1,271 nt of DNA, from the sequence record OR846114.1; one strand, 5' to 3'. This document shows positions 1-1,271 of the stretch, piece by piece. This DNA is from a phage. The translations under genes and the position numbers were made by a program. The notes under the pieces are model-generated. The model saw nothing but the letters and a program-made list of their open reading frames with translations, did not search any database and was not told the DNA's origin. The stretch's first letter is position 1. Each line of letters begins with the position of its first letter.

Positions 1-9
1 GCACGTAGC

Positions 10-60
10 TATCTTGTGCGGCAAGATAAAACAAGCGCTCTTCTGGGCGCTTGTTTGCTT
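10..60 (+). other. Two tandem hairpins; the second is followed by a T-rich tract (terminator-like, possibly bidirectional)
   Basis: Hairpin 1 is TATCTTG (10-16) / CAAGATA (22-28) with a 5-nt loop. Hairpin 2 is AACAAGCGC (30-38) / GCGCTTGTT (47-55) with an 8-nt loop, followed by TGCTT on the plus strand and preceded by AAA, which gives a T-tract on the minus strand. Seen directly in the sequence; function inferred. Confidence 0.3.
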
Positions 61-123
61 ATGGAGAGAGTCCACAGATGCTAATGCATAGCAGGTCGGT
101 CTCAGCACCGAAGAAATAACAAA

Positions 124-147
124 CCTCGCACTCGCGGGGATTTTTTT
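124..147 (+). terminator. Rho-independent terminator-like hairpin followed by a T7 tract
   Basis: Stem CCUCGC (124-129) pairs with GCGGGG (134-139), 6 bp including one G-U wobble, with tetraloop ACUC, then A followed by TTTTTTT (141-147). The G-U wobble becomes a C-A mismatch on the minus strand, so the plus strand is the likely functional orientation. Confidence 0.45.
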
Positions 148-177
148 CATATGAACTCGCTACGGCGGGTTTTTATT

Positions 178-181
178 GGAG
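178..181 (+). promoter_or_regulatory. Shine-Dalgarno-like GGAG for the 125-aa ORF
   Basis: GGAG lies 4 nt upstream of ATG 186 and 7 nt upstream of the in-frame ATG 189. The spacing favours 189 as the true start. Confidence 0.4.
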
Positions 182-185
182 ATAG

Positions 186-563
186 ATGATGGCAATGAAT
201 AAACGAGAAAAAGAACAACTTGAAAACGCTGTTCGCCTTATGGATATAAACCGATCGCTTAGATGGTCTGACTATGGAGCAGATCGCGATGTAGGCGTAC
301 CAGATAGCATCACCCAGTATGTTAACGGTTGGTCTATCAACACATATTCCTGCCGTGTATATAAATCATGGTCATCCACTGTATCTCATGGTGACGGATG
401 GGTTGAAAATGAAGAAAGACCCCGCTCCGCATCACAGAAAGGGATTGCGCAATACAGCACCAAAGAAAAGGCACTTAAAGCATTAAGGCATTGCATGGAA
501 ATGAAGTTTGCAGAAGCACTATACGAGATAGACCAGCAAATTCTCGCCACCGACGCGGAGTAA
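186..563 (+). CDS. Hypothetical protein, 125 aa, function unknown
   Basis: Open frame from ATG 186 to TAA 561-563, with alternative in-frame starts at 189 and 195; GGAG RBS at 178-181. Same strand as, and 96 bp upstream of, the excisionase-like gene. The translation is hydrophilic with predicted helical N- and C-terminal segments and a Trp/Tyr/Ser-rich middle. I see no Walker A, HExxH, CxxC pair or transmembrane segment, and I do not recognise the family. Confidence 0.6.
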   Translation: MMAMNKREKEQLENAVRLMDINRSLRWSDYGADRDVGVPDSITQYVNGWSINTYSCRVYKSWSSTVSHGDGWVENEERPRSASQKGIAQYSTKEKALKALRHCMEMKFAEALYEIDQQILATDAE

Positions 564-578
564 CAATGGAATCACACA

Positions 579-597
579 GCCTCATCGAGTGTGAGGC
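579..597 (+). other. Short hairpin in the spacer between the 125-aa ORF and the excisionase-like gene
   Basis: GCCTCA (579-584) / TGAGGC (592-597) with a 7-nt loop. There is no clear U-tract after it, so it is not called a terminator. Confidence 0.25.
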
Positions 598-646
598 CTG
601 TGCATTTCTCAAGATATCCCTTCCCTCCAAGTTCGATTCCCAAACC

Positions 647-659: not shown

Positions 660-863
660 ATGCGCGAATTACGCGATGACTCGCTTGTTGACTTGAAGTT
701 CATGATGGAGGATTCTGGAATGGGCAAGACCTTCATTTACTCAGAAATTAAGAAAGGCCGGTTGCCTGTCCCTCACAAAATCGGTAGCGCATCCAGATGG
801 GTTTATGCCGACTACCAAAACTGGAAACGCAGCCACTTCTCCCCTCTCCAAAATGCATCATGA
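660..863 (+). CDS. torI: AlpA/TorI-family winged-helix DNA-binding protein, probable prophage excisionase (recombination directionality factor), 67 aa
   Basis: Translation from ATG 660 is MRELRDDSLVDLKFMMEDSGMGKTFIYSEIKKGRLPVPHKIGSASRWVYADYQNWKRS... The block DSLVDLKF..GKTFIY..I..G.LP......RW.Y closely parallels E. coli KplE1 TorI as I recall it and the AlpA/Vis family signature. Size is typical for the family (about 65-70 aa). Stop TGA at 861-863. The GTG at 591 suggested by the ORF track would add a Pro-rich 23-aa extension with no RBS, so ATG 660 is preferred. The symbol is assigned by homology from memory and is unverified. Confidence 0.75.
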   Translation: MRELRDDSLVDLKFMMEDSGMGKTFIYSEIKKGRLPVPHKIGSASRWVYADYQNWKRSHFSPLQNAS

Positions 864-874
864 ATTGCCTTTGT

Positions 875-894
875 GGGCATAATTGCGGGCATAA
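875..894. repeat. Direct repeat GGGCATAA x2 with a 4-bp spacer (12-bp periodicity)
   Basis: GGGCATAA at 875-882 and again at 887-894, separated by TTGC, located between the excisionase stop and the att core. Seen directly; any role as a protein-binding site is inference. Confidence 0.3.
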
Positions 895-948
895 AACTCT
901 TCACTTCTGTAATTTCTTATAAATACCCTGCACTTACCATATTCATTA

Positions 949-968
949 GGTGTCTGCAGGGGACACCA
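949..968 (+). mobile_element. Candidate attR core: 3'-terminal fragment of a tRNA-Arg gene flanked by inverted repeats
   Basis: Positions 954-968, CTGCAGGGGACACCA, match from memory the last 15 nt of E. coli argW tRNA-Arg(CCU): T-stem 3' arm, acceptor 3' arm, discriminator A and CCA. Upstream sequence 894-953 has no T-loop, so this is a partial duplicate rather than a tRNA gene. GGTGTC (949-954) and GACACC (962-967) form 6-bp inverted repeats around the 7-bp TGCAGGG, which resembles core-type sites flanking an overlap region for a tyrosine integrase. Confidence 0.5.
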
Positions 969-1077
969 TTGATACCCAGGACATTCTCTTCTTGCTGCAT
1001 AGTCTTTCGAGCGGTTCCCCTTTCATGTTGCTTTTATTGCCCCTATGCAATATCACCGGACATGCCATACGTTCAGC

Positions 1078-1111
1078 AAAAAGTCGTCATCGGCCGGTTA
1101 TGACCGATGAC
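1078..1111 (-). terminator. Possible intrinsic terminator for the convergent outer-membrane protein gene
   Basis: On the minus strand, stem GTCATCGG (complement of 1104-1111) pairs with CCGATGAC (complement of 1086-1093) with a 10-nt loop, then GAC and TTTTT (complement of 1078-1082). It starts 14 nt downstream of the minus-strand stop codon. The stem is only about 50% GC. Confidence 0.35.
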
Positions 1112-1124
1112 ATCCCGATGTGGT

Positions 1125-1271
1125 CTAGAAGCGATACTGCAACCCCGCGGTAACCGTATAGTTATTATTAGCTATACCTGCGGCATCGCCACCAAAATAC
1201 GCCGTATCACCGCTGGTTTTATCTATGATTTGCGTACCGCCCTTACCTTCTTCATATTTACTGTAAGCGAA
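1125..1271 (-). CDS. Outer-membrane beta-barrel protein, C-terminal 48 codons plus stop (partial; 5' end outside the window), OmpX/Ail/Lom/OmpW-like terminus
   Basis: The minus-strand frame is open from 1271 down to stop TAG (complement of 1125-1127). The translated tail is [48 protein letters not shown]. The last 11 residues alternate hydrophobic and polar ([11 protein letters not shown]) and end in a terminal Phe, the classic final beta-strand signature of Gram-negative outer-membrane barrels (compare OmpX ...GVGYRF and OmpW ...AGYRF, recalled from memory). It is absent from the ORF track only because it has no start codon in the window. Confidence 0.6.

What the first reader, a model, noticed from the sequence alone, without database searches (positions are those of the whole stretch)
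186..563. Unrecognised 125-aa protein immediately upstream of the excisionase
This is the only gene in the window I cannot place in any family. It is hydrophilic, with helical-looking termini around a Trp/Tyr/Ser-rich centre, and has no catalytic or membrane motifs I can see. It has a GGAG RBS, sits directly after a terminator-like element, and lies 96 bp upstream of the RDF on the same strand. Prophage-end genes outside the core lysogeny functions are often morons, anti-defence or superinfection-exclusion factors, but nothing in the sequence proves any of these.
Basis: inference. Interest (0 to 1): 0.55.

Follow-up and report, generated by a model that had tools for sequence, protein, structure and literature searches.

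The report
Conserved orphan-fold phage and plasmid protein
The 124-aa gene is real and strongly conserved, belongs to a large uncharacterised family carried by phages and by hundreds of large conjugative resistance plasmids, and has a confidently predicted fold with no solved relative, but its function remains unproven and it is not part of the excision machinery next to it.

Summary
An ORF at 186-563 (probable true start ATG 189, 124 aa) follows GGAG and two tandem terminator-like hairpins, and ends 96 bp before a TorI-type excisionase at the argW attR end of a lambdoid Salmonella prophage.

The link to the excisionase is positional only. A mosaic joint lies at position 618. Relatives occur in long phage-like contigs with no integrase nearby, and on 660 plasmids (623 conjugative, IncHI2A/MOBH among them). 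No partner gene is conserved across 34 non-redundant contexts, and the gene is usually tightly packed in a co-directional operon.

The moron, superinfection-exclusion, DNA-mimic and leading-region readings each failed a test. My best inference, at low-moderate confidence, is an autonomous cytoplasmic early protein that binds a conserved host or defence target, or a ligand, to help a mobile element establish itself. Function is unproven.

The parts
124..176 (+). Two tandem intrinsic-terminator-like hairpins (124-139 + T7; 153-173 + T5) immediately upstream. The second U-tract runs into the RBS.
   Evidence: first hairpin; both hairpins in MFE and centroid, z = -4.16. They belong to the upstream module: absent in L016/L017, where the previous gene ends 33 nt before the focal start.
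178..181 (+). GGAG ribosome-binding site
   Evidence: Sequence. 7 nt before ATG 189, 4 nt before ATG 186.
189..563 (+). Focal gene: 124-aa member of phrog_28248. The listed ORF starts at 186; the probable true start is 189.
564..618 (+). Relic 5' fragment of a different helix-turn-helix (xis-type) gene (MESHSLIECEACAFLKIS...). Identity to phage 29485 ends at 618, which marks a mosaic joint.
   Evidence: identity stops at 618. (PGAP annotates the same fragment in E. coli E89 as an HTH protein missing its C-terminus). (37-aa ORF called there in L007).
660..863 (+). TorI-family recombination directionality factor (67 aa). Context only; not part of the focal module.
   Evidence: PDB 1z4h Tor inhibition protein, E = 4.8e-15; phrog_66 excisionase, 2.2e-09; AlpA, sub-threshold.
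954..970 (+). attR core: a copy of the 3' end of tRNA-Arg argW (CTGCAGGGGACACCATT). Marks the prophage right end.
   Evidence: 15-nt exact search plus visual comparison of the two following T's give identity to the K-12 argW 3' end at the CPS-53 boundary; 0 matches in 200 shuffles. E. coli homology to the window stops at about 969-977.
1125..1271 (-). 3' end of the host omptin gene (pgtE-like), outside the prophage
   Evidence: Omptin PF01278 at L005 10937-11875, minus strand, followed by pgtA/B/C/P-like genes; Omptin 1.5e-132.

Best explanation
The ORF encodes a genuine, strongly constrained, soluble cytoplasmic protein of about 14 kDa. It belongs to a large family of mobile-element accessory genes (phrog_28248). 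In this prophage it is the last gene but one of the N-antiterminated early-left (pL) operon. Its own upstream region is occupied by terminators and holds no promoter-like site, so it should be made only after induction or infection, by read-through. It acts alone: no partner gene is conserved, and it is not functionally tied to the excisionase. The family spans hosts from alpha- to gamma-proteobacteria and very different elements (temperate phages, long phage-like contigs, IncHI2A/MOBH megaplasmids). Its conserved positions are rich in Trp, Tyr, His, Ser, Thr, Asn, Gln and Arg. The most likely mode of action is therefore stoichiometric binding of something widely conserved in bacterial cells: a core host protein, a widespread defence component, or a nucleotide-like ligand. 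That binding would help an incoming or awakening element establish itself. Shown: real gene, family membership, fold prediction, distribution, operon embedding, independence from int/xis. Inferred: timing of expression, binder rather than enzyme, establishment or counter-defence role.
For: Real gene: dN/dS 0.07-0.38; 969 representatives at E<=1e-3 and 515 at <=1e-10. Family: phrog_28248 matched by all 149 diverse members. Fold: pLDDT 91.2, pTM 0.77; independently predicted BFVD models of relatives at 21-28% identity superpose at TM 0.68-0.86. Early-operon setting: cI-like repressor, N peptide, cIII, Arf, Rad52-type recombinase and Anti-RecBCD_p2 (Abc2-type) lie upstream on the same strand. No sigma-70-like site was found in the whole window, and two terminators abut the RBS. 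Autonomy: 34 non-redundant contexts show no recurrent neighbour family. Operon embedding: the downstream neighbour is co-directional in 28 of 34 groups, median gap 2 nt. Independence from excision: mosaic joint at 618 with a different xis/int cassette in phage 29485; relatives in 71-277 kb contigs with no integrase in the surveyed flanks. Cross-element distribution: 660 plasmids, 623 conjugative. Soluble with unremarkable charge. Conserved polar and aromatic positions are spread over the whole domain: K5, E7, R25, W26, D34, W48, N51, W61, S62, H67, S82, Q83, Y89, S90, T91, R100, E104, D115.
Against: There is no direct functional evidence of any kind. No similarity to any known anti-defence, host-takeover or ligand-sponge protein was found by sequence or fold. 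On the IncHI2A plasmid examined, the homolog lies about 51 kb from mobI/mobH (oriT), so it is not in the leading region where plasmid anti-defence genes concentrate (concept from PMC11541004). Very strong purifying selection and near-invariant His, Arg and Asp residues would fit an enzyme at least as well as an arms-race inhibitor. The promoter scan is a simple consensus search and cannot exclude a non-canonical promoter.
Confidence: 0.4

Rival explanations
1. It is a small enzyme, for example a hydrolase or transferase acting on a nucleotide, nucleic acid or metabolite. The near-invariant His67 with Ser62 and an Asp would form the active site. Ser62 and His67 are cross-strand neighbours in the beta2-beta3 hairpin; that is inferred from the secondary structure, not measured.
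For: Conservation is high and evenly spread, including H67 92%, S62 84%, D34 90%, R100 100% and D115 100%. dN/dS is as low as 0.07-0.10. Distribution is very broad across hosts and element types, as expected for chemistry on a universal substrate.
Against: No known catalytic motif or fold matches. At 124 aa, with about half the chain in two long helices, little room is left for an active site. S62, H67 and D34 are not strictly invariant (84-92%). The Rhizobium phage homolog appears to lack the His in the alignment.
Confidence: 0.17
2. It is a nucleic-acid-binding accessory factor of the phage recombination and replication module. It would bind ssDNA or recombination intermediates, or modulate host repair, through a small SH3/chromo-like beta-sheet packed on a helix.
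Confidence: 0.15
3. It is a lysogeny-expressed moron, lysogenic-conversion factor or superinfection-exclusion factor at the prophage end.
For: It lies near the prophage end, in the non-essential ea region where accessory genes accumulate. A terminator precedes it.
Against: No promoter-like site is present, and the terminator U-tract runs into the RBS. The protein is soluble and cytoplasmic, with no TM or signal-like segment in 149 members. Elsewhere the gene is translationally packed into operons. It also occurs in long phage-like contigs with no integrase in the surveyed flanks.
Confidence: 0.05
4. It is an accessory of site-specific recombination that works with the adjacent TorI-type excisionase, for example by modulating excision.
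For: In every enterobacterial prophage examined it lies immediately upstream of an xis gene. An integrase lies within a few genes downstream in 5 of 34 groups.
Against: The same gene (100% identical) is joined to a different (lambda/P22-type) xis-int cassette, with the joint at 618 inside a relic of yet another xis gene. Most distant relatives and the examined plasmid copies have no int/xis nearby.
Confidence: 0.03

Closest known systems
phrog_28248 (PHROGs v4, 'unknown function')
   Same: Full-length HMM match, E = 5e-72 to 7e-72 depending on the start codon used. All 149 diverse family members match it.
   Different: Nothing differs. This is the family, but it carries no annotation, no structure and no literature.
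Non-essential 'ea' accessory genes of the lambdoid/P22 early-left operon (e.g. Ead/Ea22-like, EaA/EaD, and the DUF550 protein that occupies the same slot in E. coli E89)
   Same: Same genomic slot, between the recombination genes and xis. Same strand and the same presumed N-dependent delayed-early expression. Same modular exchange at conserved joints.
   Different: No sequence similarity to the DUF550 protein in the equivalent slot. No Pfam Ea family matched. Unlike most ea genes, this family extends far beyond lambdoid phages to alpha-proteobacterial phages, long phage-like contigs and plasmids.
Small autonomous counter-defence or establishment proteins of phages and plasmids (nucleotide sponges of the Tad/Acb2 type, Ocr/ArdA DNA mimics, PsiB-type SOS inhibitors). 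This is a functional analogy from general knowledge.
   Same: Small, soluble, and needs no partner gene. Expressed early. Shared between phages and conjugative plasmids.
   Different: No sequence or fold match to any solved example. Not acidic like DNA mimics. Not in the plasmid leading region in the one plasmid mapped. Evolves under strong purifying selection.
Chromo/PWWP/Tudor-like small beta-sheet-plus-helix domains

Membership tests
phrog_28248 | Significant full-length match to the family HMM | tested here: met
   E = 4.9e-72 (ORF from ATG 186) / 7.4e-72 (from ATG 189), residues 2-125 on profile 15-147 of 149. 149 of 149 diverse relatives also match.
Any curated Pfam / NCBIfam family | Score above the curated gathering cut-off | tested here: not met
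   Best Pfam hit is TACC_C at 14.6 bits against a cut-off of 29.9. NCBIfam gives none. No family recurs among 149 members.
Moron (autonomously expressed prophage gene) | Own promoter upstream and own terminator downstream | tested here: not met
   0 promoter-like sites in the window. The terminator U-tract abuts the RBS. The downstream hairpin at 575-602 is not significant (z = -1.9) and lacks a U-run. Relatives are operon-embedded. The promoter scan covers the sigma-70 consensus only.
Superinfection-exclusion proteins (SieA/SieB/Imm-type) | Membrane association (TM helices or a lipoprotein signal) | tested here: not met
   The maximum Kyte-Doolittle 19-residue window across 149 members is 1.55, so none exceeds 1.6. 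GRAVY is -0.78.
DNA-mimic anti-restriction proteins (Ocr/ArdA-like) | Strongly acidic surface with large net negative charge | tested here: not met
   pI 5.7 and net charge -2. Family median pI is 8.0 and median net charge +1.
Plasmid leading-region anti-defence genes (PMC11541004) | Located within the first genes to enter, next to oriT and oriented for T-strand transcription | tested here: not met
   In IncHI2A plasmid NC_021845.1 the homolog is at 90.6 kb, and mobI/mobH are at 137.5-141.9 kb, about 51 kb away. oriT itself was inferred from the mobI position, not mapped. Only one plasmid was examined.
Known anti-phage defence system components (PADLOC-DB) | Match to a PADLOC model | tested here: not met
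   0 families at E<=1.
Integration/excision module (co-inherited with int/xis) | Consistent linkage and co-variation with a particular integrase/RDF type | tested here: not met
   An identical gene is joined to a TorI-type RDF here and to a lambda-type excisionase plus integrase in phage 29485, with the joint at 618. An integrase lies nearby in only 5 of 34 groups.
TorI/AlpA-type RDF (for the neighbouring 67-aa gene, context only) | Sequence homology to TorI; location at the argW attR end | tested here: met
   1z4h E = 4.8e-15 over residues 2-59. The attR core at 954-970 is identical to the argW 3' end.

The most novel reading that the evidence does not exclude
The family is a structurally new class of establishment or counter-defence protein shared by phage early operons and IncHI2/MOBH antibiotic-resistance megaplasmids. 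It could be, for example, a sponge for an immune signalling nucleotide or an inhibitor of a widely conserved host defence or repair component, acting through a fold with no solved relative.
Probability: 0.22. Interest if true: 0.75.

Novelty: new member of a known kind. Interest (0 to 1): 0.45.

Why it matters
If the family does promote establishment of incoming mobile DNA, it would be a new tool-like protein with a new fold. It would also bear on how IncHI2-type multidrug-resistance plasmids and temperate phages overcome host barriers. Even without a known function, the work turns an 'unplaceable prophage-end ORF' into a defined and tractable target. The target is a 124-aa soluble protein with a confident model, clear conserved residues for mutagenesis (K5, E7, D34, S62, H67, R100, D115), and two easy genetic systems for knock-outs: a Salmonella argW prophage and IncHI2 plasmids. 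Many conserved phage proteins of unknown function exist, however, so on present evidence this is a good candidate, not a discovery.

Tried and rejected
(1) Pfam, NCBIfam, PADLOC and PDB-sequence searches with the single protein and with profiles of 34 and 149 sequences gave nothing significant. A CstF-64 RRM hit at E = 0.04 with the 34-sequence profile vanished with the 149-sequence profile.

(3) Looking for informative domain fusions among longer members gave only one C-terminal Mu Gp27/small-terminase match, probably a fusion or miscall. Other extensions are low-complexity.

(4) Looking for source-given names: all are 'hypothetical protein' or 'phage protein'.

(5) Literature searches by PHROG id, phage name and protein accessions found nothing relevant.

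(6) Guilt by association across 34 non-redundant loci found no conserved partner.

(7) A shared C-terminal module with the DUF550 protein in the same slot in E. coli was rejected.

(8) The leading-region hypothesis for the plasmid homolog was not supported in the one plasmid mapped.

(9) Co-occurrence with PAPS-reductase or methyltransferase genes was seen in a few loci but not in the census.

(10) The search for related loci with the 149-sequence alignment failed because it had no conserved stretch. It was repeated with the 34-sequence alignment.

Full report
OBSERVATION. The window contains an ORF at 186-563 on the + strand (125 aa). All relatives begin MAMNKKE, so translation most probably starts at the second ATG (189; 124 aa). 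That places GGAG (178-181) 7 nt upstream. A terminator-like hairpin at 124-139 followed by T7 was found by the consensus scan. RNA folding of 100-185 shows it together with a second hairpin (153-173 + U5); the segment folds far better than shuffles (z = -4.16). The gene ends 96 bp before the next ATG, at 660. The protein is hydrophilic (GRAVY -0.78, pI 5.7).

IS IT A REAL GENE? Yes. Against orthologs from related prophages, dN/dS is 0.38 (85% identical), 0.10 (78%) and 0.07 (between those two). At 58% protein identity the synonymous sites are saturated. A profile of 30 relatives finds 969 cluster representatives (50% identity clusters) at E<=1e-3 and 515 at E<=1e-10 among 1.84 billion proteins. 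Nearly all are single-domain proteins of 115-140 aa aligned end to end.

WHERE IS IT? The exact protein is encoded in Salmonella enterica genomes. It is the last gene but one of the early-left operon of a lambdoid/P22-like prophage. The order is: S24-type repressor, N peptide, HNH, cIII, Arf, Rad52-type recombinase, Anti-RecBCD_p2 (Abc2-type), a run of small ea-type genes including a PAPS-reductase-family protein, then this gene, then a 67-aa gene. Host genes follow immediately (omptin/pgtE-like, then pgtA/B/C/P-like) on the other strand.

The 67-aa protein is a TorI homolog (PDB 1z4h, E = 4.8e-15). Window 954-970 (CTGCAGGGGACACCATT) matches the 3' end of E. coli argW exactly where the CPS-53/KplE1 prophage annotation starts (15-nt exact search, the two following T's read by eye). 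E. coli homology to the window stops at about 969-977. The window is thus the attR end of an argW-integrating prophage. From my own knowledge of KplE1, in that recombination module the integrase sits at the opposite (attL) end. That would explain why no integrase follows the RDF here.

IS IT LINKED TO THE EXCISIONASE? Only by position. The gene is 100% identical in Salmonella phage 29485. The two sequences are identical from about 170 to 618 and unrelated thereafter, and phage 29485 continues with a lambda-type excisionase and an integrase. The 55 bp between the stop codon and the joint (564-618) are the relic 5' end of yet another helix-turn-helix gene. PGAP annotates the same fragment in E. 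coli E89 as an HTH protein missing its C-terminus, and there it follows a DUF550 gene instead of this one. The DUF550 protein shares no similarity with the focal protein. The focal gene is therefore an independent mosaic module that has been joined to at least two different int/xis cassettes.

HOW WIDE IS THE FAMILY? Only 11 of 50,697 cultured phage records carry it: Salmonella, Azospirillum phage Cd, Rhizobium phages and the 134-kb Shewanella phage 1/4. It is common in viral and metagenomic contigs, including contigs of 71-277 kb where it sits in long co-directional arrays of small unannotated genes.

A homolog about 50% identical (P0036, 'MULTISPECIES Enterobacterales') is present on 660 plasmids of PLSDB. 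Of these, 623 are conjugative; the listed examples are 167-402 kb, and both plasmids examined are typed MOBH/MPF_F, one of them IncHI2A. They are found in Enterobacter, Escherichia, Salmonella, Klebsiella and Citrobacter. On the IncHI2A plasmid NC_021845.1 the gene lies about 51 kb from mobI/mobH (and so from oriT). It sits in a block of about 40 kb made up almost entirely of co-directional, small, mostly hypothetical genes, together with orphan methyltransferases, HNH endonucleases and a PAPS-reductase-family gene. It is therefore not in the canonical leading region, where plasmid anti-defence genes concentrate (concept: PMC11541004).

WHAT IS IT LIKE? No Pfam, NCBIfam or PADLOC family matches it. 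Its only family is phrog_28248, 'unknown function' (E = 5e-72), and all 149 diverse members match that family and no annotated one. Profiles of 34 and 149 sequences find nothing significant in PDB sequences. No Pfam family recurs among the 149 members scanned individually.

Across 149 members there is no transmembrane-range hydrophobic segment. The median pI is 8.0 (5th-95th percentile 5.8-9.4) and the median net charge is +1. Conserved positions are spread over the whole domain and are unusually rich in aromatic and hydrogen-bonding residues: K5, E7, R25, W26, D34, P38, G47, W48, N51, W61, S62, H67, G68, G70, S82, Q83, Y89, S90, T91, A95, R100, E104, A108, L111, D115, I118. Of these, A95, R100 and D115 are invariant.

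CONTEXT CENSUS. I reduced 60 loci to 34 groups (focal protein under 80% identical between groups). I then scanned the four ORFs on each side against Pfam. No family recurs beyond generic early-region content: integrase in 5 groups, HNH_3 in 4, and single or double occurrences of Erf, RecT, YqaJ, RdgC, Gp157, replication O/P, NinG, NinX, Lar, Ead/Ea22 and methyltransferases. Most neighbours have no Pfam match. The downstream neighbour is co-directional in 28 of 34 groups with a median gap of 2 nt, often with overlapping stop and start codons. ORF calling here was a simple longest-ORF heuristic, so the individual numbers are approximate.

INTERPRETATION. What is shown: this is a real, strongly constrained, soluble single-domain protein with a fold that has no recognisable solved relative. 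It is an autonomous module of mobile elements of very different kinds and hosts. It is embedded in early operons and is independent of the integration/excision genes.

What follows by inference: in this prophage it has no promoter of its own (none found; the terminator U-tract runs into the RBS). It should therefore be expressed only by N-antiterminated read-through from pL after induction or infection. It has no partner, and its hosts range from alpha- to gamma-proteobacteria, with one weak hit in a Saccharibacteria MAG. Its target must therefore be something widely conserved. My best single explanation (confidence about 0.4) is a stoichiometric cytoplasmic binder of a conserved host or defence component, or of a nucleotide-like ligand, that aids establishment of the element.

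The main rivals are a small enzyme built around S62/H67 (0.17) and a nucleic-acid-binding accessory of recombination or replication (0.15). Against the first, no catalytic motif or fold is recognisable and the candidate residues are only 84-92% conserved. Against the second, the window protein is net negative and few basic residues are conserved.

NOVELTY AND SCORE. The family is already catalogued (phrog_28248) but is entirely uncharacterised. Its genomic role, an accessory early gene in the ea slot of a lambdoid phage, is a known kind of thing. The new points are its breadth, its presence on hundreds of IncHI2-type conjugative plasmids, and the absence of any structural relative. That makes it a worthwhile experimental candidate but not, on present evidence, a surprising discovery: interest 0.45. 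The most novel reading not excluded is a new-fold counter-defence or establishment factor shared by phages and resistance megaplasmids. I give that about 0.22 probability, and it would merit about 0.75.

Noticed in passing
window 954-970: CTGCAGGGGACACCATT matches the 3' end of E. coli tRNA-Arg argW at the CPS-53/KplE1 prophage boundary (15 nt by exact search, the last two T's by eye). This is the attR core, so the window spans the right end of an argW-integrating prophage. ARAGORN finds no tRNA because only the 3' fragment is present.
   Followed up: yes
window 660-863: The 'excisionase' is specifically a TorI homolog (PDB 1z4h, E = 4.8e-15). No integrase follows it, and host DNA starts about 100 bp later. 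This is consistent with the KplE1-type module, in which int and RDF lie at opposite prophage ends (own knowledge).
   Followed up: yes
window 564-618: Relic 5' fragment of a different HTH/xis-type gene (MESHSLIECEACAFLKIS). It is conserved in phage 29485 (where it carries a stop at codon 2) and in E. coli E89 (annotated as a truncated HTH pseudogene after a DUF550 gene). It marks a recombination joint at 618, a fossil of xis/int cassette swapping.
   Followed up: yes
window 1-176: Three hairpins lie in 176 nt of intergenic DNA: 33-56, 124-139 + T7, and 153-173 + T5. Only sub-threshold Rfam hits were found (istR terminator part 19.7 bits, rsmX 21 bits). This could be stacked terminators of the upstream module or a small RNA gene.
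   Followed up: partly
window 1085-1112 (minus strand): A strong terminator-like hairpin (11 pairs) lies between attR and the stop codon of the omptin gene. It is probably the pgtE terminator.
   Followed up: no
P0019 (148 aa, one NCBI genome): A frameshifted copy of the focal gene reads through into the downstream relic region. This is an example of pseudogenisation in one lineage.
   Followed up: no
L047 (E. coli 1919D3, NZ_CP046006.1 1399714-1400005): An unannotated relic of this torI-like gene plus the attR arm (91% identical to window 678-969) sits next to dsdC, directly after an IS3 insertion and a truncated tail gene. It is a decayed argW prophage.
   Followed up: partly
L005 7149-8393; L063/L064 (NC_021845.1 104779-107163): A PAPS-reductase-family gene accompanies the focal family both in the Salmonella prophage (four called genes upstream) and on the IncHI2A plasmid (14 kb downstream). 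It was not seen in the +/-4-gene census of other loci, so this may be coincidence.
   Followed up: partly
P0058 (195 aa): One family member carries a C-terminal Mu Gp27/small-terminase-like segment (Pfam 5.5e-14, phrog_426 1.7e-12). It comes from a 1.8-kb contig and is probably a gene fusion or a missed stop.
   Followed up: no
L061 (Candidatus Saccharibacteria MAG, 5001-5333): A 28%-identical relative (E = 9e-6 relative to candidates only) occurs in a CPR bacterium contig. If genuine, the family reaches well beyond Proteobacteria.
   Followed up: no
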